Shown here: in pieces, positions 25,100 through 62,504 of the stretch
Layout: every line of letters begins with the position of its first letter
Numbering within the stretch: position 1 is the stretch's first letter
DNA from: a virus
Lineage: Duplodnaviria > Heunggongvirae > Uroviricota > Caudoviricetes
Direction: 5' to 3' (one strand)
IMG/VR virus record: IMGVR_UViG_3300009983_000002
DNA: 64,000 bases
Notes under the pieces: model-generated
What the model was told of the DNA's origin: nothing
The model's database searches: none
The model's input: only the letters and a program-made list of their open reading frames with translations
Translations under genes and position numbers: made by a program

Positions 25100-25292
25100 G
25101 TTCGAAGTCACCCTCACCTTTAGGAAGACCAACGGCGACACCTGGAACGAAGCCTATGGCCGTGATGCCGTGAGCCTTCCAGACGCCATCCAACTCGTTA
25201 CCGGGGACCTTCCCCTCCATCAGCGTGCGTGGCTTGTCCACGTCAACGCCGTGGACCCGACTCCAATCGCCCGTCTTCAAGCCGTAGCATGA
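25092..25292 (+). CDS. hypothetical small protein
   Basis: 66 aa; coupled ATGA into next gene. Confidence 0.35.
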   Translation: MRRFEVTLTFRKTNGDTWNEAYGRDAVSLPDAIQLVTGDLPLHQRAWLVHVNAVDPTPIARLQAVA

Positions 25293-28200
25293 ACCGCCTC
25301 ACCAACGAAGAATCGTTCTTCGAAGTTTTGTCCAACGTATTCGGTGACGCCAAAGGCGACGCCGTCTTTTTCGCTGACGGCGACAACCGTCTGGAGTCGC
25401 GTGACTACGATGAAATCGTAGAGGCGCTAGGCGACGGCGCGTCCCTCACCCTCGTAACTTCCAAGATGGAAATTCTTGGGATCGCCGCCGAGAGTATCGG
25501 CGAATTCCCGACTCCTACGTTCATCGTCGGCCACGAAGAGCGCGACTTCGAATTCAACGTCTGGCTCTTCAAGACGCCGGTCGATTTTACTTTCGGCTCG
25601 AAGCTGTCGCTGGGGCTGGAAGCTGCGGCGAAGAAGCTCGACGAGAACTCGCACATTGGTTCGCAATTCCCAGTGCCTGGGGTGAATGGCTGGGACTTCA
25701 TTGGCGATGTCGGCCCGCGTTGGGATGTCGCTGAATTTCTCGATGCCGTTGGGATCGACGCCGACTCCGTCCAGTCGCAAGTCGAGAAGGTATTGTTCCC
25801 GAGCGGGAGCAATAACGCGGAATCCGACGAAAACCCGCCTGATGTTACCGTTCGGGAACAATCGAGCGCTGAAGCCACAAATGTTACCGATGGGGAACAA
25901 CTGAAGATCGGCGACGCGCTGATCTACGGTGACTTCGACGACGCCTTCTTGGCGACGAAGTTGAAACTCGGGGTCAGCGTCAAAGGCGCGAAGACGAAGC
26001 CCGGCGAGTGGCAGAACGCCGAACTCACAGTCACCGATTTGCTCCTGCTGCTCTCCGAACATGAGCAAGGGGCGAAGGACGGAAAGTGCATCCTTCAAGG
26101 CGAAGTCATCGACGGCGAGCGCAAGGCCCAAAGCGTTCGCGCGTGTCACATTCTCATGCTCGACCTCGATACCGGCGAGGACTTGCAGGACACGATCAAG
26201 AAGCTCCAGCAACTGGGGCTGGCCGCTGCCGTGTGGACTACGCACAGTCACTTGAAGCCCTCGACGAGCATTCGCAAGGATGCCGTGGTCCGGTTCATCA
26301 AGGAGAAGCGCGAGCCTAACCTGGATGACGTGAAGCGGTATCTGCTCGAAGTCAAGCGGTATCGTCCGTATATTATCGACTCGGCTGCGTTGGGTCCAGC
26401 AGAGCACACGAAAGAAGGTCTTCAGTTGGTGGTCAACCACCTGCCGATGCCAAAGTTCCGTGTGATGTTCTTTTTGTCCAAGCCTTTTGTGTTTGCCGAC
26501 TTCCTCGACAACCGCACGGCCAACGAAGCCTGGAAAGCTGCCTATGAGCGCACGTCGGACATGCTTGGCGCGTTCTACGACAAGGCTTGCACCGACCCGT
26601 CGCGTCTCATGTATACGCCGCGACACGGCGAGGGCGCGAAGGGTTACAGCATCCACTTCATCGCAGGCAAGCCCCTCGATCTCGACGCGGCCCCGGCGCC
26701 CGCCGACGCCCGGCAAGCGGCCTTCTCTGCGGCTGCTGCCCAAACCTCTGTCATCGACAAACGCGACGTAAAGTCAAGCGACTATCAAACGTCGTGGCTT
26801 CGCGGCTTCTTGGCGAAGAACAGCGACGTGTTCCAGGTCGCCGACTTCTTTGAAGCCTACGGCGAACCCCGTGGCCCACGCAATGGGGCCGGGGCTCACT
26901 ACCGCTGCCCGAACGATGACGAGCACACGAACGCAGGCGACCCCGAAGACAAAGGCTTCTACTGCGTGAACGCAGGCGAAGGCGACTATGTCGAGGGCTT
27001 CATCGCTAAGTGTATGCACGCTTCCTGCGCCGAGAAGCATCGCGGCCACATGCTCGACTTGATGGTCGTCGAACACGATCTCAGCGAAGAAGACCTGAAT
27101 CAGTTTTGCGACGAAGCGCTACGTCCCGATCAAGAACCGGCGAAGCAAGAGGCTCCTAAGCAACAGGCCCCCATCGTTCTCGAAGCTGAAGAAGGCGACG
27201 AAGACCAGACAGACAGCGATGACGACTATACGGCTTCGTCGGCCTACGACGAGCCACATATCAAGCGCGCCATGCAGACCATGAATAAAGAATGGGCTGT
27301 TGTTACGCTTGGAACAGACGTTCGTATTATGCGGGAGCCGAAGCAAGCTGGTAAAATGCCGAGCTTCCACGGTATCGAAGCCTTCCGCAATCTCTATTCA
27401 AATAAGAAAATCAACGTCCCTGTAGAGGGTGGCTACAAAGCTGTTCCAGTGACCAAGTTGTGGCTTGAATGGCCGCAGCGGCGCACGTTCTTTGATGGCG
27501 TGATCTTCGAGCCAGAAGAGCAAAATCCTGACGCCTATAATTTGTGGCGGGGATACCCCACGCAAGCTAAGCGTGGCTCTTGGTCTATGCTGCGTGAGCA
27601 CGTCTACGACAACATCTGCGCTGGCGATGAAGAGCGCTTCAACTGGTTCATGACGTGGTTGGCGCAGATCGTCCAGTTCCCGGGCCGCAAGATGGGTTCG
27701 GCGGTCGCGATCAAGGGCTTGAAGGGCACGGGCAAATCTAAGCTCTTCGAGTGGGTGAAGAAAGGCCTCGGCAATCACGCGATCAAAGTCAGCCAGAAGA
27801 AACACATTGTCGGCGACTTCAACGGCCACCACAAAGGTGTGACGTTGATGGTCTGCGAAGAAGCCTTCTGGGCTGGTGATCACGCTGCGGGCAACGCCCT
27901 GAAAGACCTGATCACCAGCGACACCATGATGTTCGAACAGAAGGGCATCGACGCGGTTCCGATCTCAAACTATGTGCGGCTGGCTTTCATCTCCAACGAA
28001 CACTGGATTGTCCCCGCCGGACTCGAAGACGAGCGTCGCTATTTTGTGATGGAGTGTAAGGACACCCGTCGCGGTGATATTCCTTTCTTCATCGCTATCG
28101 ACGAGCAAATGGAGAATGGCGGGCTTGAGGCCATGTGGTATGAGTTGTCCAACTGGGACGCTCACGAACTCTATCCCGAGAAGGGCTGGAACATTCTCCG

Positions 28201-28606
28201 CACGCCTCCTATGACGGAAGAGCTAGTCGATCAGGCTATGGAAACGATTGAAGCCTGGGACAAATTCTTCATCGGCTTCATTGAAGACGGCAAACTCGAA
28301 GCATCTTCTCACCCTGATCTCCCGGAAATCATTCTCGAAGACGACGAAACAAACCATGTCAGCATCACCGCGTTGCGCCTTCACTTCGAAGCGTATCTCA
28401 CCCATCTTGGCGGCAACGCTCGCCACAAGCTTGGCAATCGTGGCTTCCTTAAAAAGCAAGCCATTAAATACCTCGGTATCGAGGACAAGTCGGTTGCCCA
28501 TCGTTTCGGAGGCGAGGTCGTTCGCTGCTACAAATGTCCTCCCCTTCCCGAAATCCGCGCGCGTATCACGCAAAAGCTGAAGATCAAACTTGACTTGCCA
28601 GATTAA
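25289..28606 (+). CDS. DNA primase/helicase (prim-pol N-terminal region, Zn-binding segment, SF3/D5-like helicase C-terminal)
   Basis: 1105 aa from ATG 25289. Cys/His cluster HYRCPNDDEH...CVNAG...CMHASCAEKH. C-terminal Walker A AIKGLKGTGKSKL and Walker B LMVCEEAFW typical of P4/D5-type primase-helicases. Confidence 0.65.
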   Translation: MNRLTNEESFFEVLSNVFGDAKGDAVFFADGDNRLESRDYDEIVEALGDGASLTLVTSKMEILGIAAESIGEFPTPTFIVGHEERDFEFNVWLFKTPVDFTFGSKLSLGLEAAAKKLDENSHIGSQFPVPGVNGWDFIGDVGPRWDVAEFLDAVGIDADSVQSQVEKVLFPSGSNNAESDENPPDVTVREQSSAEATNVTDGEQLKIGDALIYGDFDDAFLATKLKLGVSVKGAKTKPGEWQNAELTVTDLLLLLSEHEQGAKDGKCILQGEVIDGERKAQSVRACHILMLDLDTGEDLQDTIKKLQQLGLAAAVWTTHSHLKPSTSIRKDAVVRFIKEKREPNLDDVKRYLLEVKRYRPYIIDSAALGPAEHTKEGLQLVVNHLPMPKFRVMFFLSKPFVFADFLDNRTANEAWKAAYERTSDMLGAFYDKACTDPSRLMYTPRHGEGAKGYSIHFIAGKPLDLDAAPAPADARQAAFSAAAAQTSVIDKRDVKSSDYQTSWLRGFLAKNSDVFQVADFFEAYGEPRGPRNGAGAHYRCPNDDEHTNAGDPEDKGFYCVNAGEGDYVEGFIAKCMHASCAEKHRGHMLDLMVVEHDLSEEDLNQFCDEALRPDQEPAKQEAPKQQAPIVLEAEEGDEDQTDSDDDYTASSAYDEPHIKRAMQTMNKEWAVVTLGTDVRIMREPKQAGKMPSFHGIEAFRNLYSNKKINVPVEGGYKAVPVTKLWLEWPQRRTFFDGVIFEPEEQNPDAYNLWRGYPTQAKRGSWSMLREHVYDNICAGDEERFNWFMTWLAQIVQFPGRKMGSAVAIKGLKGTGKSKLFEWVKKGLGNHAIKVSQKKHIVGDFNGHHKGVTLMVCEEAFWAGDHAAGNALKDLITSDTMMFEQKGIDAVPISNYVRLAFISNEHWIVPAGLEDERRYFVMECKDTRRGDIPFFIAIDEQMENGGLEAMWYELSNWDAHELYPEKGWNILRTPPMTEELVDQAMETIEAWDKFFIGFIEDGKLEASSHPDLPEIILEDDETNHVSITALRLHFEAYLTHLGGNARHKLGNRGFLKKQAIKYLGIEDKSVAHRFGGEVVRCYKCPPLPEIRARITQKLKIKLDLPD

Positions 28607-29002: not shown

Positions 29003-29297
29003 TGCTCCCGAACAAGAATTCGAGCACGCATTTCTCGACCAGTCGCAAAGCTTCATGAATGGCTTCGCCCTGGGCTCTCTGTGGGAGCAATTCGACCGTC
29101 ATGTGCCTGTCTTCTGCATCCTCCATCCTTCGTGTCTCACCGACGCCCTGAAGCTCGCCAGCTATTGCGGCTACGACATCAAGCACCGCGAGACCATCGA
29201 CACCGGGACCGGCGAAGTCTGCATTGTATTCCACGGCGAGCCCGGCGCGGCACCTGCAAGGACAAAGCTGACCCTGATCCAAGGTGGCAGGAACTGA
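28995..29297 (+). CDS. hypothetical protein
   Basis: 100 aa; internal ATG of track ORF 28881..29297 overlapping upstream stop. Confidence 0.4.
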   Translation: MPDAPEQEFEHAFLDQSQSFMNGFALGSLWEQFDRHVPVFCILHPSCLTDALKLASYCGYDIKHRETIDTGTGEVCIVFHGEPGAAPARTKLTLIQGGRN

Positions 29298-29322
29298 ACA
29301 ACTTTCTCCCGGCGAGCGTGGT

Positions 29323-29760
29323 ATGGAAAAACTGATCCCCTACGAGCAGGCGTTGCGGCTGGCCCGCAAGTCTACAATCGACTCGCTGCTGCGCTACCTG
29401 TTGCAGCCCGACCTCCTTCCCCAAGGCCACGCCTTCTACGTCGTCGTCGTTCCCAAGGTCTCTGGCGTCATCCTCCCCGCGACGTGGATGGACAAAGACG
29501 AGGTCACTCTGGTGCTCCAGCATCAGTGGAAGAATGCCAGGATCGAGAACGAAATCCTTTTTATCGACCTCTGCTTCTCCGGCAAGTGGTCGCGCTGCGT
29601 GATTCCCTTCGAGTCCATTCAGACCTTCAGCGACTACCATGCAGGCTTCGCCGTCCACAAGCGCGTGACCTTCACGGAAACACCGCCGCCCCCGCCGGAG
29701 CCCGAACCCGCTCCCGACACCACGGTCGTGAGCCTCGATAGCTTCAGGAAAAAGACTTGA
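29323..29760 (+). CDS. hypothetical protein
   Basis: About 145 aa (MEKLIPYEQ...). Pro-rich C-terminus. Confidence 0.4.
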   Translation: MEKLIPYEQALRLARKSTIDSLLRYLLQPDLLPQGHAFYVVVVPKVSGVILPATWMDKDEVTLVLQHQWKNARIENEILFIDLCFSGKWSRCVIPFESIQTFSDYHAGFAVHKRVTFTETPPPPPEPEPAPDTTVVSLDSFRKKT

Positions 29761-55420: not shown

Positions 55421-56199
55421 TTAACAAAATCTCCACGGAGGAAATCGACGTAATCAGCGGAGCGCCGATGGTAGAAATAGCCCTGTCCCCTGATGTCGCC
55501 GGGTTCGATCCAGCCGGGATTGACGGGCCCGATGACAGAGGTCGGCCATAGCCCCCTTTTCTTCACCGGCCTATCGTGGAGCTTGACGAGCCAGAATGTT
55601 TGATCTTCATGAGCGTAGAAGAGGATGGTGTTGTCGGGGCTGCTGGCGAAGGCATAGCGCTGCCAGAGGGAGAGGCGGAGGTAGACGAAATTGTGGACGT
55701 AGGAGCCGGAGATGAACTGTCGGGGGCTGAGCCCGGTCAGGGAGTAGCCGTCTTTGAGGAAGTTCCGCGTGGCCCGGGGGAGGATGAAAATCCAAATACA
55801 AGGCACCCCATTGTCGAGGTAGGCGCGGGTCCTGGAGTCGATCTCTTCCCAGGTCTGTGAGGATCGCTGGACTTCGAGAGCCCAACGGCGCCCGGATTTG
55901 GCGATGAGGATGTCGGCCCTGCGGTCGGTCCCGGGGAGAAAGCCCATGACCGCTTCCTCCTTGACTTCGAACCCCCTACGGCGGTAGTTCTGTGCGAGTA
56001 ACATCTTCGCCGTCATGTGTTCGACGGTCTCCCCATAGGAACACCCCTGGGGATCGTGGTGATGGGCGAAGTGGGGGACGATGGCCTTGGGGAGGCGGAG
56101 GTTGACGCGGGCCCCACAACCCGGGCAGGTGTAATCGTCTCTACGCTCTTCAGTGAGGTAGGCGACGCGGGGTTCGGTTCCGAGGTTGGCGACGAGCAT
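55405..56199 (-). CDS. CoiA-like competence-family protein (putative nuclease)
   Basis: 264 aa; N-terminal CPGCGARVNLRLPKAIVPHFAHHH...C matches the CoiA CxxC...HFAH signature. Confidence 0.45.
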   Translation of the reverse strand: MLVANLGTEPRVAYLTEERRDDYTCPGCGARVNLRLPKAIVPHFAHHHDPQGCSYGETVEHMTAKMLLAQNYRRRGFEVKEEAVMGFLPGTDRRADILIAKSGRRWALEVQRSSQTWEEIDSRTRAYLDNGVPCIWIFILPRATRNFLKDGYSLTGLSPRQFISGSYVHNFVYLRLSLWQRYAFASSPDNTILFYAHEDQTFWLVKLHDRPVKKRGLWPTSVIGPVNPGWIEPGDIRGQGYFYHRRSADYVDFLRGDFVKHEFA

Positions 56200-56279
56200 C
56201 AGACCCTTCTACCCAACTCAGGTCGAGCCGTCAACGCCTGATTTACGGTGAGAGAGGGAGTCCTCATTTTCGTGAATAA

Positions 56280-56560
56280 CCGTGGGTCTCCCCAGTTGAG
56301 AACGGTTCGCATGTAACAATGTAACGCATGTAACGCAGAAAAAGTCGCGCTAAGGAAAATCAGGGGGTAAAAGCGAGTGACACCTTGGGTCTTCGTGTGT
56401 TAGGTGAGTTGGGTGAGGGAAAAAAGGTCAGAGGTCGAAAAGTTGGGTTACATCGGTTACATCGGTTACATCGTTGATTTTATTGGGATTTGACGGTTAC
56501 ATTTTGTTACATATTCTTCTTTTAAGTATAGTTAAATGTTACATTCTTGTGTTGGGTGTA
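56280..56560. repeat. iteron array: GTTACAT / ATGTAAC 7-mer repeated about 10 times in an AT-rich 280-bp stretch
   Basis: ATGTAAC at 56299, 56309, 56319. GTTACAT in GGTTACATCGGTTACATCGGTTACATCG (56441-56470), GGTTACATTTTGTTACAT (56484-56505), AATGTTACATT (56533). Local GC far below window mean. Confidence 0.7.
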
Positions 56561-56727
56561 TTGGGTTTCCGACCGTGCGTTGGGTATTCGGCCCTCTCCC
56601 AAGCCGAAATCGCTCATTCGTAACCGAGCGCCCCGCCGTGTAACCGAGATGGTTAACGGCTGGGTTACAGGTAAGGTTGACGAAAATGGTTGACATTAAC
56701 CATTTCCTGGAGTAGCGTTTAACCTTA

Positions 56728-57039
56728 ATGGAACAGTCCGTAATCAACGCTACAGTCGCTGCCGAATTGCTGCCCAGCATCATCCGCTGGTTCGGCGCCG
56801 AGCCCCTTGAAAGTCAGGACGCTCTTCGGACATCGCTGACCCTCTCTCTGGAACACTCAGCCGACGCCTATGAGCGGGCGAAGTTCCTCGACACCGTCCG
56901 GGGCTGGCCCGCCGATGCCAACCTCGTCACCATCCTCTCCCGCGCCGAAGGCATCGAGTCTCGCGTGCGGCAGGGCCCAATCTTGGCCGCCGCCGACAAT
57001 GTCCGCTCCATCTTCTCCGCCCGTCGTTTTGGGGATTGA
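56728..57039 (+). CDS. hypothetical protein (first gene of packaging operon)
   Basis: 103 aa. ATG immediately preceded by GTTTAACCTTAATG, which contains the reverse of the TTAAGGTTAA iteron. Confidence 0.45.
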   Translation: MEQSVINATVAAELLPSIIRWFGAEPLESQDALRTSLTLSLEHSADAYERAKFLDTVRGWPADANLVTILSRAEGIESRVRQGPILAAADNVRSIFSARRFGD

Positions 57040-57514
57040 CCCCGGGCTCGAAGGGGCCCTTGCCTTTCTCGATCCCAGCGGCGTCCTCGAAATCCACGAC
57101 ATGCCTACCTTCGCTGTGACCAAGTCGAAGCGGAAGGAGTATGTCGATCTGTGGGCCGTTCGCGATCTTGTTCGTGGCCGGGCCATCGTGCATACCTATC
57201 TCGAAGAAGTCGGCTCTTCACCACAAATGGGCGTCGTGTCAGCTTTCAGCTTCGGTGGCGGCTACTTCGGGGTCCAAGGCGTGATCATCAGTCACGACAT
57301 TGCCCTGACGACCGTGCGGCCCGGCATCTGGAAGACCCGGATGCGAGCCCCAGCCGACAAGAAACAAAGCGTCTCTCGCGCCAAAGCTTTGTTCCCGCAT
57401 TGTTCTGAACTGATCGGGAAGAAAGATGGCCGGGCCGAGGCCGCGATGCTCGCCCTATTTGGGGCCCTTGAATTGAACATGACGCCGGGGATCATTCGTC
57501 CATGCCAGTGCTAG
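57031..57514 (+). CDS. RuvC-like Holliday junction resolvase
   Basis: Real product begins near TTG 57031 inside track ORF 56870..57514. VLGIDPGLEGALAFLD matches the RuvC/YqgF N-terminal catalytic motif (GIDPG...G). About 160 aa. Confidence 0.6.
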
Positions 57515-58053
57515 CCAACGAACGCCAGGAGAAGGCGTGCCAACTCCGGGCCAAGGGCCTGACCCAAGCCGAAGCCTACGAGCTTGCCGGTTATACGCCG
57601 TCGCGTTCGAACGCCTCCGCCCTATTTTCACAGCCGGAGATCAAGCAGCGGCTGGCCGAAATCAAGGAAGAGCGGGAGAAGCTGGAAGCCCGGCGCCGCG
57701 CCGCCCACGAAGAGCTTCAGAAGACCCAAGGCGAACTTGGGATCGAAGACCTTGAGACCGAGAACCACGGCATCACCCGCGAGTGGATCATTCTCCAATA
57801 CAAGGAGGTCATCAAGAACGCTCAGCAGGAGGGCAAACACGCCGCAGCGGCGTCGGCGCTCCGCGAGGTCACGAAGCTTTTGGGGCTCGACAAACCACCG
57901 CCGGGCGACCCCAACAAGGCCGGAGCCCCGCAAGGCCCGGCACAACCCAAGCGTTCAACGTCGGGGCTCATGGATGCCCTGACCGAAGAGGCGGACGAAG
58001 AAGTCGCCCAAGAGGAAGCTGCCGAAGATGGCGATCATCCTACCACGGCCTGA
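57502..58053 (+). CDS. terminase small subunit
   Basis: 183 aa; N-terminal HTH QLRAKGLTQAEAYELAGYTP typical of TerS. Acidic C-terminus. Immediately upstream of TerL with 26-nt overlap. Confidence 0.6.
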   Translation: MPVLANERQEKACQLRAKGLTQAEAYELAGYTPSRSNASALFSQPEIKQRLAEIKEEREKLEARRRAAHEELQKTQGELGIEDLETENHGITREWIILQYKEVIKNAQQEGKHAAAASALREVTKLLGLDKPPPGDPNKAGAPQGPAQPKRSTSGLMDALTEEADEEVAQEEAAEDGDHPTTA

Positions 58054-59695
58054 GCGCGACCGTTATCGTAAAGCGATAAAGCGGGCCGAAGGCTATCTGG
58101 TCAAAATCGAAGACGCGATCCGCCGGGGGACCCCTCTCGGCGAGGACATCCGGCCCCATATCGAGCGGCTGACGCAGACCATTGACCCACATCAGGCCCA
58201 TCGGAGCCTCGAAGACGATCTGATCAGGATCAAAGTCGAGTATGAGCAAAAGCTGCTCGACGCCGCAGAGACTGACTTCTCTGCATTCTGCGAATACATG
58301 ACGCCGGAGGAGCCTCCGGCTGCTCACCATTATTTCCTCTGCGATAATCTTGAGGCCATGTCTCGGGGCGACATCCTGCGCCTCATGATTTCTATGCCGC
58401 CAGGACATGCCAAATCGACGTATTCCTCGCACAAATTCCCCGCATGGTGGATGGGCAAGAATTCACGCAAGCGCTTCATCCAGGCAGGCCACACCCAAAA
58501 CTTCTGCGAGAACCAACTCGGCAAGCCCGTGCGGAACATCGTCAAAGACGAGCGCTATGGGAAAGTTTTCCCAGACATCAGGATCAGTTCTGAATCTAAC
58601 GCGGCGGGCTTCTGGGCCCTCGTGACCGGCGGCAGCTATCTCACCAAAGGCGTCGGCCAAGGCATCGCGGGCTTCCGGGCCCACTGCGCCGGGGTCGATG
58701 ACCCGTTCGCCAGCCGCGAAGACGCTGAATCCGAGGTCATTCGCGAGAAGACTTTCAACTGGTTTAGCGCCGACTTCACAACGCGATTGCTCCCCCGGTG
58801 CCCCATGTATATTGTGGCAACACGGTGGCACCCCGACGACCTGTGCGCCAGGGTCGAGCAACTGAACAAAGACGGCAAGGGCTACCCCTGGACGATCATC
58901 AACCTCCCGGCCATCGCTGGGGCAAATGACCCTATGGGGCGTGCGCCGGGCGAAGCACTCTGGCCCGAGCTTTTTGATGTAGAATACTTGCTACATTTGA
59001 AGGCCACTCTCCCACCACGCGACTGGAATTCACTATACCAGGGGACCCCGACAAATGCTGAAGGGGGTATGGTTAATGGCGACAGCGTTCATCGTTACCA
59101 GGAGCGCCCGGTTAACCTTATCGACGAATATGGCCGGATTACGAAGTGGAACGTCAAGCGCCTGACGATCTCGGCGGACACGGCCAGCAAAGATCAGCAG
59201 CGGCACGACCCGACCGCGATTACCGTCTGGATCGAGACCGTTGATCGGCGCCATTACCTGATCGACGTGGTGGTCAAGCGCGTTCAGTTTAACGACCTCG
59301 TAACCTTAATCGAGGACACCTGCCGCCGCTGGCAGTTGGAGTATCCGGGCACCCCCACGGCCATCCTCGTCGAAGACAAGGGCTCGGGGACCCAGTATAT
59401 TCAAGCCCGGCAGCACCTTGCACCTGCGGTTGTGATCCCCATCGCCGTGACCAACGTCTCGAAGGAGTTCCGCTTCGACGGCGTGAGCCCGATGTTCACC
59501 ATCGGCGAAGTCCTGCTGCCTGAGCGGGCGATCTGGCTGCCCGACTACGAGAAGGAAATCTTCGAGTTCGACGGCAAGGGCACGGCCACCCACGACGACC
59601 AAGTCGATAGCACCAGCCAATACCTGTCCTGGGCCCGTCAAGGCCGTGGCCGGGGCTCGAAGAAGCTGAAGGGCACGGGCTACTCTCGCCGGTAA
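58028..59695 (+). CDS. terminase large subunit
   Basis: 555 aa; ATPase Walker A-like MPPGHAKST, Walker B/coupling YIVATRWHPDDL. C-terminal RNaseH-like nuclease with ISADTA...D and ATHDDQVDS acidic residues. Confidence 0.8.
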   Translation: MAIILPRPERDRYRKAIKRAEGYLVKIEDAIRRGTPLGEDIRPHIERLTQTIDPHQAHRSLEDDLIRIKVEYEQKLLDAAETDFSAFCEYMTPEEPPAAHHYFLCDNLEAMSRGDILRLMISMPPGHAKSTYSSHKFPAWWMGKNSRKRFIQAGHTQNFCENQLGKPVRNIVKDERYGKVFPDIRISSESNAAGFWALVTGGSYLTKGVGQGIAGFRAHCAGVDDPFASREDAESEVIREKTFNWFSADFTTRLLPRCPMYIVATRWHPDDLCARVEQLNKDGKGYPWTIINLPAIAGANDPMGRAPGEALWPELFDVEYLLHLKATLPPRDWNSLYQGTPTNAEGGMVNGDSVHRYQERPVNLIDEYGRITKWNVKRLTISADTASKDQQRHDPTAITVWIETVDRRHYLIDVVVKRVQFNDLVTLIEDTCRRWQLEYPGTPTAILVEDKGSGTQYIQARQHLAPAVVIPIAVTNVSKEFRFDGVSPMFTIGEVLLPERAIWLPDYEKEIFEFDGKGTATHDDQVDSTSQYLSWARQGRGRGSKKLKGTGYSRR

Positions 59696-59754
59696 GCTGT
59701 CATAAAAGACATGAATCGTGACACCTGCGAAAAAGCGTGTCTAATCAATGACAT

Positions 59755-59865
59755 CCGGGGACCCTGCGCTTTTTATGACAGGGACCCTAGCGTTTTATGA
59801 CAGGGCAGGGACCCTCGGGTTTTCGACCTGGGGCCGGTCGGGGACCCTGGGCTTTTCGGCATGGG
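59755..59865. repeat. four tandem imperfect about 24-bp repeats: GGGACCCT-N3-5-TTTT-N7
   Basis: GGGGACCCTGCGCTTTTTATGACA / GGGACCCTAGCGTTTTATGACA / GGGCAGGGACCCTCGGGTTTTCGACCT / GGGGACCCTGGGCTTTTCGGCATG. Confidence 0.7.
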
Positions 59866-60469
59866 CCGGGGCCTAAATCCTGGGCGGGAGGGGCCAGATA
59901 TGGCCCATTAAGGTTCAAAAACGGGGCTAATGGGCCATTTATGAGCCATTAGGCATGACCCAAAACAGGGTCAATTTCTGCGACTGACCCAATTCAGGTT
60001 CACACCCAATTTCACCCGATTGGCCGGTTTCAGCAGCCGGTGAAAGCCCGCCGTCCAGTGAAAATCGGCGCCGTCATCGTTTCTCGACCCAACTCACCTG
60101 CGACCCTCGATTTTGGACGCTCGTCATCGCTTTTGGACACCAAATGCTTGTGATGGCCCAGCAGAATAGGCTTGAAATGGCCCGGCCACGTCCTGCAAAT
60201 TTGCACGGAGCGGTGAAGGTTTTGCGCAGCGGCGATCTCGCGGTTTTCTCCAACGAGGCGACCTTAATGCGTCATATATGATGCCTTAAGTCGGTTAATG
60301 TCCTTTATATGCACCATAAACGACGTTTGTGACCTCAGTCACACTCGCCTACATGGTTAATTTGGGCTGCATAGCTCGACGTGGAGGCCTACGACCGTTT
60401 CTGACGTATGATCATGAGCGGCCTGACGCTTATCTGACGATTACCCCGCTGCCCGTCGCGATCTCGGGC

Positions 60470-60600
60470 TCGGCCAACTCTGAATCAATCGAATTTTGGC
60501 TCTGACTCTTTTCGATTTTGGCACTCTGAATCAATCGCTTTTTGGCGCGCGCCCACTCTGAATCTTTTCGTTTTTGGCACGAATCGATTCGATTTTGGTT
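60470..60600. repeat. 4-5 tandem about 26-bp repeats: CTCTGAATC-N6-ATTTTTGGC
   Basis: CTCTGAATCAATCGAATTTTGGC / TCTGACTCTTTTCGATTTTGGCA / CTCTGAATCAATCGCTTTTTGGCG / CTCTGAATCTTTTCGTTTTTGGCA / CGAATCGATTCGATTTTGG. Confidence 0.7.
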
Positions 60601-60609
60601 AATGTGAAT

Positions 60610-60900
60610 TTGCGTTAAGGTTAACCCAGGTTAAGGTTAACAGCCGTTAAGGTTAACGCGGCATTAAGGTTAACGCCCGGCGGCGGCCCGTTAAGGTTAA
60701 CGCCACACGCGGTTCCGTTAAGGTTGAAAATTAAGGTTAACCCGGGAGGCCGCCGCGTTAAGGTTAACGCAGGCCGGGAACGTGTTAAGGTTAACCGGGC
60801 GGGGCGCCGCGTTAACCCTAACCCAACGCAGGGCCGCGTTAACCCTAATGGATCACGCCGCCGCGTTAACCATGATGGGCGGCTGTGCCAAAATGAGGCG
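60610..60900. repeat. iteron array: 11 copies of TTAAGGTTAAC, then 3 copies of GCGTTAACC(C/A)T(A/G)A, with irregular GC-rich spacers
   Basis: Direct reading of 60613-60890. The core GTTAAC is palindromic. Track ORFs 60724..61011 and 60782..61129 are artefacts of this repeat. Confidence 0.8.
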
Positions 60901-61034
60901 GAGCATTGCGCCCCGCCTCCCTTTGAGCCCGTTAGCGAATTCGAGCAACCTAGCGGCCTTGGCTTGCGCCTCCCGCTCGGCGAGGGCCTTAGCGAGGGCG
61001 AGCCCCGCTAAGATTCCCTCTTTCGCTTGCGCGT

Positions 61035-61286
61035 TCACGCTGTCACCGTTCCGGCTGGCGCGTGCGCCAGCGTGGTCTCGGCGAAAAGAGTCAGGGCTTG
61101 CGCCGCCTTCTCATATTCGCCGCGCTTGAACTTCAAGCCCGTGATGCTTTCCGCAGTCTTAAGCATCGCGGTGGGCGTCCAAGCCCGATTGGGTTTCATG
61201 CCGGTTTTGGCATAAAGACGCAGCCCCGACGCCAGCGCCGTAGCGCGGAAAATCGAGACTCCAGCAGGTCCGTTAAACGTGGTCAT
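61035..61286 (-). CDS. small protein with hairpin-TIR (83 aa)
   Basis: Start at the Met encoded by ...ATCGGAAGGAGAAACCGATATG (translated SEGETDM inside track ORF 61035..61355). Confidence 0.45.
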   Translation of the reverse strand: MTTFNGPAGVSIFRATALASGLRLYAKTGMKPNRAWTPTAMLKTAESITGLKFKRGEYEKAAQALTLFAETTLAHAPAGTVTA

Positions 61287-61405
61287 ATCGGTTTCTCCTT
61301 CCGATGCGCCGACAATAGCACGCGCCGCGCTGGCGTCAAGCGAAAAAGTTGGCAACGCTTTGTTAAGACCTTGGCTCTATAGTCGGCGCATCAAAGGAGT
61401 CGGCT

Positions 61406-61603
61406 ATGCCTGATTTAATTCGCTGGCGCTACTACATGCGGGAAGCGCAAAAGTCCGTTGACATCGCGAGCGCCGCGAAGGCGCGAGGCGATAAGCCGGG
61501 CGCCCGCCGCTGGCTAGAGCAAGCATCAAGCGAGCTTGACCAAGCGGCCTTTTGGCGCTCTAATGAAGCGCCGCAAATCGAGCCGCAAGGATTCATGTTA
61601 TGA
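61406..61603 (+). CDS. small protein (65 aa)
   Basis: SD AAAGGAGTCGGCT upstream. Confidence 0.4.
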   Translation: MPDLIRWRYYMREAQKSVDIASAAKARGDKPGARRWLEQASSELDQAAFWRSNEAPQIEPQGFML

Positions 61604-61815
61604 ACGCTTTCGCAAAGCGCCCTATTGAGTTTCCGCCGCGCCCCATGACGCAAGGCCGCTTTAGAATCGAAACGATTCTATTGGCGCGAGCAATGGCCGC
61701 GAGCATGAAGCGAGACGGCGCGAAAGGCGCCGCGCTTATGCGCCGCGTCGCATGGGACAAGTTACGCGACGCGCAAGCCTGGAAACGCGGGCTTGACATC
61801 GCGGGCGCCGCCTGA
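61600..61815 (+). CDS. small basic protein (71 aa)
   Basis: ATGA coupling. Confidence 0.4.
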   Translation: MNAFAKRPIEFPPRPMTQGRFRIETILLARAMAASMKRDGAKGAALMRRVAWDKLRDAQAWKRGLDIAGAA

Positions 61816-61846
61816 TAGTCTCGCTAAATCGGAAGGAGAAACCGAT

Positions 61847-62185
61847 ATGCGAATCGCTCAAATCGTAATGCCTAAGCAAGGCAACGCGGGCGAAGACTTG
61901 CAAGCCGTGCATTACAGCTTGCGCCGCGAGCTTGCCAAAAGATTCGGCGGATATACCGCGCTAGAGTCGCATGGCGGATGGATTGACGAGTCCGGGAAGC
62001 TTTACGATGAGCCCGGAATCACCTATCAATGCGCCTGCGATGATTGCGAAGCAAACCGCGAAGCGCTGCGCCAGATTGCAAAAATTCATGGCCGCGCCGC
62101 CGCTCAATTAGCGGTTTTCGTAACGTATCCGTGCGGAACCGCTGAAATTATTGACATCTCGCATCACATGGAGAAACGCGCATGA
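61847..62185 (+). CDS. small protein with hairpin-TIR (112 aa)
   Basis: ATG preceded by ATCGGAAGGAGAAACCGAT. CxCDDCE cysteines. Confidence 0.45.
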   Translation: MRIAQIVMPKQGNAGEDLQAVHYSLRRELAKRFGGYTALESHGGWIDESGKLYDEPGITYQCACDDCEANREALRQIAKIHGRAAAQLAVFVTYPCGTAEIIDISHHMEKRA

Positions 62186-62463
62186 CCACGCAACCACGCT
62201 GCGAAACTTCCAAGCTAACCCAACGCGCGGCGCACGCTAAAGACGCTGGGAAGCTTGCGCCGTTGCAGCATCGGCATTTTGCGACAATCGCCACAATCAT
62301 CAAAGCGCTCGGCGCCGATGATTTTAGCAACGTGCGCGACCATTGCGTCAGCCTCGCCGACGCTGAAAATCTCCGCGCCGACATCGCGGAACACTTCGCG
62401 GCGAAACTCGCGAAGACTAACGATAAATTCGACCGCGCCCGCTTTCTTGCCGCTTGCAAATAG
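62182..62463 (+). CDS. small protein (93 aa)
   Basis: ATGA coupling. Confidence 0.4.
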   Translation: MTTQPRCETSKLTQRAAHAKDAGKLAPLQHRHFATIATIIKALGADDFSNVRDHCVSLADAENLRADIAEHFAAKLAKTNDKFDRARFLAACK

Positions 62464-62504
62464 CGGCAAAGCCTGCTAGGCTCACTAAATCGAAGGAGTC
62501 GCAA

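What the first reader, a model, noticed from the sequence alone, without database searches (positions are those of the whole stretch)
60610..60900. TTAAGGTTAAC iteron array also found inverted at the start codon of the first packaging gene
The 11-mer TTAAGGTTAAC (core GTTAAC palindrome) occurs 11 times in 290 bp with variable GC-rich spacers.

Its reverse complement (GTTTAACCTTAATGG) sits exactly at the ATG of gene 56728, the first gene of the RuvC/TerS/TerL operon. GGTTAAC also occurs at 56653.

This suggests one DNA-binding protein both marks the array and autoregulates or gates expression of the packaging operon. The protein is a candidate pac-site recogniser or replication initiator.
Basis: seen in the sequence. 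Interest (0 to 1): 0.7.

Follow-up and report, generated by a model that had tools for sequence, protein, structure and literature searches.

The report
Host CtrA-type box array in phage
The repeat array is real and conserved, but it is most likely a landing pad for the host cell-cycle regulator CtrA, a feature already described in related phages of Alphaproteobacteria, rather than a phage-specific iteron or packaging site.

Summary
The array is real. It has 12 units at 60614-60876: 8 exact TTAAGGTTAAC, one degenerate copy and three GTTAACC-type variants. No exact copy lies elsewhere in the window, and chance predicts none.

The unit is a doublet of TTAA half-sites, GTTAAG-GTTAAC. The same 11-mer recurs in distantly related phages of Alphaproteobacteria. 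In the phiCbK, Lacusarx and DSS3P8-like lineages it sits at the same place, just after terL in the terminal-repeat block.

It also occurs in unrelated Brevundimonas Delta-like phages. A published Delta probe made of such doublets was shifted by purified phosphorylated CtrA.

In a relative with 85% identical TerL, units are 97% identical and spacers 62%. Partner half-sites lie 11 or 21 bp away, which is CtrA-type phasing.

A TTAA-CC-TTAA box overlaps the -10/+1 and ATG of the first packaging-operon gene. The relative keeps it with the centre flipped.

Best reading: a host CtrA-binding cluster that couples phage control to the host cell cycle. A phage-specific iteron or pac role is unlikely, and GGGACCC repeat clusters are better terminal-repeat or pac candidates. 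Binding is inferred, not shown. This is a new member of a known kind.

The parts
60614..60876 (.). Array 1. Twelve 12-bp units made of two abutting TTAA half-sites (GTTAAG-GTTAAC). Nine are of the TTAAGGTTAAC type and three are GTTAACC variants; the last contains TTAACCAT. The period is 16-17 bp for the first four units and 27 bp afterwards.
   Evidence: Between the window and L080, units are 97% identical and spacers 62%.
56719..56728 (.). TTAA-CC-TTAA doublet overlapping the predicted -10/+1 and the ATG (56728) of the first gene of the packaging operon. Candidate repressing operator.
   Evidence: Conserved in L080 as TTAAGGTTAA one base before the ATG, with the centre flipped, while the flanks diverge.
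56690..56703 (+). TTGACA (-35) directly followed by TTAACCAT (the CtrA half-site consensus). Seventeen bp downstream is TAGCGT (56713-56718). No Shine-Dalgarno sequence lies at a usable distance, so the mRNA is probably leaderless.
   Evidence: The 14-mer TTGACATTAACCAT is identical in L080.
56651..56657 (.). Isolated GGTTAAC half-site upstream of the packaging promoter.
59908..59918 (+). Degenerate doublet TTAAGGTTCAA in the left part of the gap.
   Evidence: Kept in L080 as TTAAGGTTGAA.
60477..60613 (+). Five T-rich repeats of 22-32 bp ending in TTTTGG(C), of the form ACTCTGAATCAATCGATTTTGGC, abutting the array. Candidate sites for a phage-specific protein (context, not the finding itself).
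   Evidence: L080 has a different repeat at the same place, GAGTCATGACACGG.CGAGTTTTGGC; this segment is 55% identical. Analogous T-rich repeats abut the doublet array in Lacusarx, Karma, L022 and Leszy.
60211..60352 (.). AT-rich block conserved far above its flanks. It contains the near-palindrome GCGTCATATATGATGC and the hairpin GTGACCTCAGTCAC (context).
   Evidence: 88% identity to L080 against 47-52% in the flanks. No Rfam match.
59758..59870 (+). Four GGGACCCT repeats (GGGACCCT-N6-8-TTTT...) immediately after terL. Candidate left boundary or pac element of a terminal repeat (context).
   Evidence: A second cluster lies 5.25 kb downstream on the same genome (L164). In Lacusarx the two clusters are 10.47 kb apart, which matches its 10.5-kb double-coverage region.
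60895..60919 (-). Hairpin GAGGCGG...CCGCCTC followed on the - strand by ATTTTGG. Likely terminator of the leftward gene or genes, so the array lies in a convergent, promoter-less zone.
   Evidence: 84% conserved in L080.
61035..61286 (-). Gene A, an 83-aa protein of unknown function with a strong ribosome-binding site. It is the nearest gene to the array.
   Evidence: 89 homologues, no Pfam domain. The two homologues checked on other contigs (L167, L168) have no motif nearby.

Best explanation
**What it is**
- The array is a dense cluster of binding boxes for a conserved host transcription factor.
- The most probable factor is the alphaproteobacterial response regulator CtrA, which recognises TTAA half-sites (canonical site TTAA-N7-TTAA; preferred extended half-site GTTAAC or TTAACCAT).
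- Each 12-bp unit, GTTAAG-GTTAAC, is two abutting half-sites. Successive units are phased so that the second half-site of one unit lies 10-11 bp or 21 bp, one or two helical turns, from the first half-site of the next.

**Where it sits**
- The array lies in the non-coding gap just after terL. By synteny with phiCbK-like phages and Lacusarx, this is the terL-proximal end of the direct terminal repeat.
- It is next to phage-specific T-rich repeats and an AT-rich block.
- A smaller second array lies 3.1 kb downstream, just past the end of the window. It has the arrangement seen in relatives: terminator, array, promoter, gene.

**Inferred mechanism**
- Phosphorylated CtrA occupies the arrays. It also occupies the TTAACCAT and TTAA-CC-TTAA boxes that flank the -35 and cover the -10/+1 of the packaging-operon promoter.
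- That layout resembles the CtrA-repressed hemE Ps and ctrA P1 promoters of Caulobacter.
- Phage early-block and packaging expression would then follow the host's CtrA state.
- Arrays on replicating genomes may also compete with the single promoter box for CtrA.

**Shown versus inferred**
- Shown here: the array, its conservation, its phasing, its synteny and the conserved promoter box.
- Inferred: that CtrA is the binder, and the direction of regulation.
For: **Non-random and localised**
- 8 exact copies against 0 expected.
- 25 of the window's 80 TTAA lie in one kilobase, 60-61 kb.

**Selection acts on the boxes**
- Against L080 (TerL 85% identical), units are 140/144 identical while spacers are 74/119, with a further 71 gap columns.

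**The same 11-mer in distant lineages**
- 75 IMG/VR stretches carry paired copies. They include contigs whose lengths match CcrSC and Lacusarx, and phiCbK-sized contigs.
- Arrays lie at the syntenic terL-gap position in Lacusarx, the DSS3P8-like contig L022 and Karma.

**CtrA-type geometry**
- At 136 isolated sites, partner half-sites occur only 11 or 21 bp from the nearest TTAA. Their frequency is 10-26% at those offsets and at most 8% at every other offset.
- The TTAA-to-TTAA offset histogram peaks at 6, 27, 21, 17, 13 and 11.
- Isolated sites sit between a terminator and a promoter and are often followed by GTTAACCAT.

**Published evidence**
- phiCbK-cluster and Lacusarx terminal repeats are rich in predicted CtrA sites (PMC9437464).
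- Array junctions such as GTTAACGGGCCTTAAGG are among the sites predicted in CcrSC.
- Purified CtrA~P shifted a Delta probe composed of TTAAGGTAAAC, TTAACCTTAAT and GTTAACCTTAC, and CtrA regulates phage promoters.
- The gap of the Delta-like phage Leszy holds exact GTTAACCTTAAC and GTTAAGGTTAAC units.
- CtrA also uses N6 sites and single half-sites at -10. The hemE Ps promoter has cooperative -35 and -10 sites (PMC11264516).

**Promoter box**
- The box is conserved between the window and L080 with its centre flipped.

**Chromosomal pairs**
- Paired copies are enriched in Alphaproteobacteria.
- One pair lies between a DUF1465 gene and a TrcR cell-cycle regulator gene. From my own knowledge, DUF1465 is the RcdA family.

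**No phage candidate found**
- No response regulator or other obvious candidate binder is encoded among the window's ORFs screened. One HTH protein is the only DNA-binding hit.
Against: - Only one canonical TTAA-N7-TTAA and two N6 sites exist in the array. Most units are 27 bp apart with GC-rich spacers, so CtrA binding to this geometry is untested.
- The strict conservation of the central GG/CC and the flanking G and C exceeds what the published CtrA consensus requires. It could reflect a different dimeric protein that reads the 12-bp palindrome.
- The host of this phage is unknown.
- The closest TerL relative, Mwe-JY26 (54% identity), has a different repeat, CTCCAGGCT, at the syntenic place and no copy of the motif.
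- Array 1 lies between convergent transcription units with no recognisable downstream promoter. Its direct transcriptional target is therefore unclear.
- The published Delta EMSA used no doublet-specific mutants.
Confidence: 0.55

Rival explanations
1. The 12-bp palindromic unit GTTAA-SS-TTAAC is the operator of another conserved dimeric DNA-binding protein. This could be a phage-encoded global regulator shared by this supergroup of phages, or a different host factor such as SciP. Arrays would be high-occupancy operator clusters.
For: - The G and C flanks and the central GG/CC are conserved beyond the TTAA cores.
- The 6-bp half-site offset is unusual for OmpR-family regulators (own knowledge).
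- Array periods of 17, 27 and 38 bp keep a constant helical phase between units, as in arrays bound by ParR- or omega-type proteins.
- The window covers only part of the genome, so a regulator could be encoded outside it.
Against: - Phage regulators normally change specificity quickly. Here the box is identical in phages with 37-46% TerL identity and in the unrelated Delta-like lineage.
- Partner half-sites at 11 bp reproduce the CtrA N7 rule.
- CtrA~P shifted a Delta probe made of doublets.
- Mascolo et al. found no positional skew for SciP, GcrA or DnaA motifs.
- No candidate was found among the window ORFs screened.
Confidence: 0.2
2. The array belongs to a phage replication origin. In this reading the TTAAGGTTAAC units are iterons for a phage initiator. 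A variant is that the units are CtrA boxes gating an origin formed by the neighbouring 22-bp repeats and AT-rich block.
For: - The gap has origin-like anatomy: direct repeats, an AT-rich conserved block and host-factor boxes. The same trio recurs in Lacusarx, L022, Karma and the unrelated Leszy.
- The Caulobacter chromosomal origin carries five CtrA sites that silence initiation (own knowledge).
Against: - As initiator iterons the units fail the specificity test, because they are invariant across diverged phages.
- No initiator gene is adjacent. The primase-helicase gene lies 32 kb away, at 25229-28606.
- GC skew follows gene orientation and gives no origin signal.
- Nothing here tests origin activity.
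Confidence: 0.1
3. The array is the pac, or TerS-recognition, site for packaging initiation.
For: - It lies 0.9-1.2 kb downstream of terL.
- In phiCbK-type phages packaging starts within or just after terL (PMC3556154).
- Near-copies of the motif lie inside the 3' part of terL and are conserved in L080.
Against: - The motif is invariant although TerS and TerL diverge.
- In relatives it lies dispersed upstream of promoters throughout the small-gene block.
- In Karma the mapped left terminus is 1.9 kb from its array and has no TTAA.
- GGGACCC clusters flank the putative repeat. In Lacusarx their spacing equals the measured repeat length.
Confidence: 0.07
4. The array is a neutral tandem-repeat expansion with no function.
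For: - Perfect microsatellite-like arrays that contain the same 11-mer occur by chance in unrelated bacteria such as Bacteroidales and Moorena.
- The spacer motif CCAACGCAGG is shared by units in arrays 1 and 2, which shows duplication.
Against: - Spacers have diverged while units have not.
- Position and motif are conserved across lineages.
Confidence: 0.03

Closest known systems
High-density CtrA-binding-site regions of phages infecting Alphaproteobacteria, the 'LPEG' signature (Mascolo et al. 2022, PMC9437464)
   Same: - TTAA half-sites are concentrated in one intergenic gap or terminal-repeat region of an alphaproteobacterial-type phage.
- The phages belong to the same broad cluster (phiCbK, Lacusarx).
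- The same TTAA-N2-TTAA doublets are present in the EMSA-positive Delta probe.
- Boxes lie next to promoters.
   Different: - Here almost all units are 27 bp apart, and only one canonical N7 site exists.
- The main array lies between convergent genes rather than upstream of a gene.
- The doublet, its 11/21-bp phasing rule and its conserved pairing with T-rich repeats were not described in that paper's main text as searched.
- No binding data exist for this phage.
CtrA sites of Caulobacter promoters and origin: hemE Ps, ctrA P1/P2 and pilA sites 1-4
   Same: - There are multiple half-sites with N6/N7 spacing.
- Boxes lie at -35 and at -10/+1, an arrangement associated with repression.
- Closely abutting sites occur; pilA sites 2 and 3 are 3 bp apart.
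   Different: - The host examples have 2-5 sites, not 12 phased doublets.
- No host example of a 27-bp periodic array is known to me.
Plasmid or phage iterons and ParR/omega-type centromere arrays
   Same: Tandem short repeats in direct and inverted orientation with constant helical phasing, next to an AT-rich region.
   Different: - The sequence does not co-vary with the phage.
- No rep or par genes are adjacent.
- The units also occur singly at promoters and in host chromosomes.

Membership tests
CtrA-binding-site cluster of alphaproteobacterial phages (LPEG-type) | Strongly localised concentration of CtrA-type half-sites or sites in one region of the genome | tested here: met
   25 of 80 TTAA in the window lie in 60-61 kb. 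All 8 exact 11-mers lie in 181 bp.
CtrA-binding-site cluster of alphaproteobacterial phages (LPEG-type) | Sites match the canonical TTAA-N7-TTAA dyad | tested here: inconclusive
   - The window holds only one exact N7 site (60653-60667) and two N6 sites; the rest are N2 doublets spaced 21 bp apart.
- In relatives, partners lie at 11 or 21 bp.
CtrA-binding-site cluster of alphaproteobacterial phages (LPEG-type) | Intergenic location, in a gap or terminal-repeat region | tested here: met
   - The array lies in the 1.2-kb non-coding gap after terL.
- This is syntenic with the terminal-repeat start in Karma and Lacusarx.
CtrA-binding-site cluster of alphaproteobacterial phages (LPEG-type) | The host encodes CtrA (an alphaproteobacterium) | not testable with these tools
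   - The host is unknown.
- TerL relatives infect Ruegeria, Sphingobium, Erythrobacter, Caulobacter and Brevundimonas. The best hit is labelled a Microcystis phage.
CtrA-binding-site cluster of alphaproteobacterial phages (LPEG-type) | CtrA~P binds the sites | not testable with these tools
   Only indirect evidence exists: published EMSA on a Delta probe made of the same doublets.
Replication iterons | The repeat sequence is specific to the replicon and co-varies with its initiator | tested here: not met
   - The 11-mer is identical in phages with 37-85% TerL identity and in unrelated Leszy.
- The adjacent 22-bp repeats do co-vary.
Replication iterons | Adjacent AT-rich unwinding region and initiator gene | tested here: inconclusive
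   A conserved AT-rich block is present at 60211-60352. No initiator gene is adjacent.
pac / TerS recognition site | Located at the packaging initiation point or genome terminus | not testable with these tools
   - No reads are available for this phage.
- By synteny the repeat starts near the terL end. In Karma the terminus is 1.9 kb from its array.
pac / TerS recognition site | The sequence is specific to the cognate TerS and not dispersed in the genome | tested here: not met
   The motif is invariant across lineages. In relatives it is dispersed between terminators and promoters.
Partition centromere (parC or omega-type array) | Adjacent parA/parM and centromere-binding protein genes | tested here: not met
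   No such families were found among the window proteins scanned.

The most novel reading that the evidence does not exclude
- The conserved module is made of phage-specific T-rich repeats, an AT-rich block and a phased array of CtrA doublets, present twice per genome in the terminal repeats.
- In this reading it is not a simple operator cluster. It would be a CtrA-gated cis element: a phage origin silenced by CtrA~P as the Caulobacter chromosomal origin is, or a DNA sponge or timer.
- As genomes replicate, the growing number of arrays would titrate CtrA~P. That would release the CtrA box on the packaging-operon start and push the host out of the swarmer-type state.
Probability: 0.15. Interest if true: 0.75.

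Novelty: new member of a known kind. Interest (0 to 1): 0.45.

Why it matters
- If CtrA binds here, this uncultured phage joins the phages that read the host cell-cycle regulator.
- It adds three concrete, testable features to that idea:
  - a defined 12-bp doublet with an 11/21-bp phasing rule;
  - a conserved position at the terL-proximal end of the terminal repeat, beside phage-specific repeats;
  - a CtrA-type box on the start of the terminase operon, which would tie DNA packaging to host state.
- The analysis also separates this array from the likelier packaging signals, the GGGACCC clusters. That helps annotation of this large, poorly understood phage group.

Tried and rejected
- Near-identity searches of 56000-62500 against the phage and plasmid collections found nothing.
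- Literature searches for the 11-mer and for the 10-mers found no relevant paper.
- Rfam and tRNA scans of the gap and window found nothing.
- The ORF reading through the array (60724-61011, repeated RVKVN) was rejected as coding. It has no start context, the spacers differ from L080 by indels that do not preserve the frame, and the first units have 16-17 bp periods.
- CRISPR was rejected, because the units are 12 bp with 4-16 bp spacers.
- Gene A next to the array was tested as a candidate binder. It has no domain, no solved relative and no similarity to the Mwe-JY26 'immunity repressor'. The two homologues checked elsewhere have no motif nearby.
- Non-alphaproteobacterial genome hits were examined. 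They proved to be perfect microsatellite-type repeats, probably chance matches.
- A sigma-70 consensus scan found no rightward promoter after array 1.
- The doublet at the packaging-operon start is not present in Lacusarx, Karma or L022, so that part is lineage-specific.
- The XRE/TgrL paper gives its motif only in a figure, so it could not be compared.

Full report
**1. The observation**

- The 11-mer TTAAGGTTAAC occurs exactly 8 times, all on the + strand between 60615 and 60795. It occurs nowhere else in the 64-kb window, and 100 shuffles gave 0 matches.
- Read in register, the array has 12 units at 60614-60876:
  - nine are (G/A)TTAAGGTTAAC, one of them degenerate;
  - three are GTTAACCCTAAC, GTTAACCCTAAT and GTTAACCATGAT.
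- Unit starts are spaced 16, 16, 17, 27, 27, 13, 27, 27, 27, 27 and 27 bp, with GC-rich spacers.
- The unit is two abutting TTAA half-sites, GTTAAG-GTTAAC.
- The site at the ATG of the 56728 gene matches 10 of 11 positions. It is a perfect TTAA-CC-TTAA doublet at 56719-56728.

**2. Genomic context**

- The window is part of a large phage genome of about 60% GC. It encodes rIIA/rIIB, PolA, helicases, ligases, a thymidylate synthase, and the operon gp(56728)-RuvC-TerS-TerL.
- TerL is 54% identical to that of 'Microcystis' phage Mwe-JY26. It is 43-46% identical to DSS3P8-type, Lacusarx and Erythrobacter phages, and about 37% to phiCbK-like phages.
- terL ends at 59695. A 1.2-kb non-coding gap follows. 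In order it contains:
  - four GGGACCCT repeats (59758-59870);
  - a conserved AT-rich block (60211-60352);
  - five T-rich repeats of about 22 bp (60477-60613);
  - the array;
  - a hairpin that terminates leftward transcription (60895-60919).
- After the gap comes one leftward gene, with a possible second one, and then a run of small rightward genes.
- Contig L164 is 100% identical to the window over 12,966 bp and extends 7.3 kb beyond it. It shows three further features:
  - a second, smaller array at about 64017-64170, arranged terminator, boxes, promoter, RBS, 211-aa gene;
  - a second GGGACCC cluster at about 65004-65249;
  - the portal gene after that.

**3. Comparative evidence**

- *Close relative.* IMG/VR contig L080 has a TerL 85% identical to this one. 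Its gap has the same order of elements.
  - Array units are 97% identical (140/144 columns).
  - Spacers are 62% identical, with 71 further gap columns.
  - The 22-bp repeats are a different sequence in L080.
  - Array 2 and its promoter are also conserved.
- *Distant relatives.* A scan for two copies of the motif 4-30 bp apart found 75 IMG/VR stretches. They include contigs whose lengths match Caulobacter phage CcrSC and Sphingobium phage Lacusarx, and phiCbK-sized contigs.
- *Synteny.* Lacusarx, a DSS3P8-like 151-kb contig (L022) and phage Karma all have a doublet array after terL, each abutted by T-rich repeats.
- *Isolated copies.* In relatives, isolated copies sit between a rho-independent terminator and a promoter, and are often followed by GTTAACCAT.
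- *Phasing.* Across 136 such sites, further half-sites occur only 11 or 21 bp from the nearest TTAA of the doublet. Their frequency is 10-26% at those offsets and at most 8% elsewhere. The TTAA-to-TTAA offset histogram agrees.
- *Unrelated phages.* The same exact units fill the intergenic gap of Brevundimonas Delta-like phages, which belong to an unrelated lineage.
- *Bacterial genomes.*
  - About 35 of 83 hits are alphaproteobacterial pairs with differing spacers.
  - The hits examined from other phyla are perfect microsatellites, probably chance matches.
  - One alphaproteobacterial pair lies between a DUF1465 gene and a trcR cell-cycle gene. From my own knowledge, DUF1465 is the RcdA family.

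**4. What binds it**

- A box kept identical across phages whose own proteins have diverged this far, and shared with an unrelated phage and with host chromosomes, points to a conserved host protein.
- CtrA recognises TTAA-N7-TTAA. GTTAAC and TTAACCAT are its preferred extended half-sites.
- Published work (PMC9437464) supports the link:
  - phiCbK-cluster and Lacusarx terminal repeats are rich in predicted CtrA sites;
  - purified CtrA~P shifted a Delta probe made of TTAAGGTAAAC, TTAACCTTAAT and GTTAACCTTAC;
  - CtrA represses or activates phage promoters.
- Junctions between doublets, such as GTTAACGGGCCTTAAGG in CcrSC, are among that paper's predicted sites.
- CtrA also uses N6 spacing and single half-sites at -10. 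It acts cooperatively at the -35 and -10 sites of hemE Ps (PMC11264516).
- No response regulator is encoded among the window ORFs screened.
- The caveats are real:
  - only one N7 and two N6 sites exist in this array;
  - the 27-bp geometry is untested;
  - the G/C flanks and the centre of the unit are more conserved than the CtrA consensus requires;
  - the host is unknown;
  - Mwe-JY26 carries a different repeat at the same place.

**5. The packaging-operon site**

- The promoter reads TTGACA (56690-56695), then TTAACCAT, then after a 17-bp spacer TAGCGT, then TTAACCTTAATG. No usable Shine-Dalgarno sequence is present, so the mRNA is probably leaderless.
- In L080 the upstream region is largely unalignable, but two elements survive:
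  - TTGACATTAACCAT is identical;
  - the doublet is kept as TTAAGGTTAA next to the ATG, with its centre flipped.
- Boxes beside the -35 and over the -10/+1 resemble CtrA-repressed promoters.
- The feature is absent from Lacusarx, Karma and L022.

**6. Packaging site and origin**

- In phiCbK-type phages the left genome end lies in terL codon 652, or just downstream of terL in Colossus (PMC3556154).
- Lacusarx has a 10.5-kb double-coverage block right after terL (PMC5648845).
- GGGACCC repeat clusters bracket this block:
  - 10.47 kb apart in Lacusarx, which matches its repeat length;
  - 5.25 kb apart here;
  - 5.3 kb apart in L080.
- In Karma, a cluster follows terL and a single copy lies 44 bp from the right end.
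- These clusters, not the TTAAGGTTAAC array, are therefore the better boundary or pac candidates.
- In Karma the mapped terminus is 1.9 kb from its array.
- The recurrent trio of T-rich repeats, AT-rich block and doublet array looks origin-like. That reading remains untested.

**7. Verdict**

- The array is real, conserved and functional in type.
- It most likely belongs to the already described class of CtrA-binding-site clusters in phages of Alphaproteobacteria.
- It adds undescribed detail: the doublet unit, the phasing rule, the conserved module, and the box on the terminase operon.
- The phage-specific iteron or pac interpretation is not supported.

Noticed in passing
window 59758-59870; same genome (L164) at window-equivalent ~65004-65249: - GGGACCC(T) repeat clusters bracket a 5.25-kb block that holds the gap, the arrays and the small genes.
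- In Lacusarx the two clusters are 10.47 kb apart, matching its 10.5-kb double-coverage terminal repeat.
- Karma has six copies just after terL and one copy 44 bp from the right repeat end.
- These clusters are candidate terminal-repeat boundary or pac elements.
   Followed up: partly
L164 7100-7300 (- strand), equal to window-equivalent ~64017-64170, just past the window end: A second, smaller array, in order:
- a terminator;
- the boxes GTTAAC, 2x GTTAAGGTTAAC, GTTAACC, GTAACCTTAAC, GTTAACCCTAAC and ATTAAC;
- a promoter (TTGCGT/TACTGT), an RBS and a 211-aa gene.

It shares the spacer CCAACGCAGG with array 1 and is conserved in L080.
   Followed up: partly
window 60477-60613: - Five T-rich repeats ending in TTTTGG(C) abut the array.
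- The repeat sequence differs in the close relative L080.
- Analogous repeats abut the doublet arrays of Lacusarx, Karma, L022 and the unrelated Leszy.
- They are candidate sites for a phage-specific protein, such as an initiator or TerS.
   Followed up: partly
window 60211-60352: - AT-rich block 88% identical to L080, with a core that is nearly identical, while the flanks are about 50%.
- It contains the near-palindrome GCGTCATATATGATGC and the hairpin GTGACCTCAGTCAC.
- It has no Rfam match and its function is unknown (promoter, origin or cut site are possible).
   Followed up: partly
window 59111-59121 and 59299-59309 (inside terL): - Two near-copies of the motif, GTTAACCTTAT and GTAACCTTAA, lie in the 3' part of terL.
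- They are identical in L080, including third codon positions.
- In phiCbK-type phages the genome's left end lies in this part of terL.
   Followed up: partly
window 56300-56570: - The divergent region upstream of the packaging operon holds several short tandem repeats: CGCATGTAA x3, GGTTACATC x3 (perfect), and GTTACA and TGGGT repeats.
- The region is largely not alignable with L080.
   Followed up: no
window 29284-29760 (+): Phage-encoded homologue of SspB, an adaptor of the ClpXP protease (Pfam E = 4.8e-13). It is of interest because ClpXP degrades CtrA in Caulobacter (own knowledge).
   Followed up: no
window 61286 (-), 61847 (+), 63282 (+): Three genes share the same translation-initiation context, which reads as SEGETD-M in the upstream reading frame. 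This suggests a repeated ribosome-binding cassette.
   Followed up: no
L001 9049-9224 (Microcystis phage Mwe-JY26): The closest TerL relative has a different 29-bp tandem array, CCCCTGGTCTCCAGGCTCTCCAGGCTG (about 6 copies), in the region after terL. It has no TTAAGGTTAAC. The array motif at this position may therefore be swapped with host lineage.
   Followed up: no
L098 1182-1207 (Hyphomicrobiales MAG): A chromosomal pair, TTAAGGTTAAC-N4-TTAAGGTTAAC, lies in the divergent region between a DUF1465 gene and a TrcR cell-cycle regulator gene. From my own knowledge DUF1465 is the RcdA family, a regulator of CtrA degradation.
   Followed up: partly
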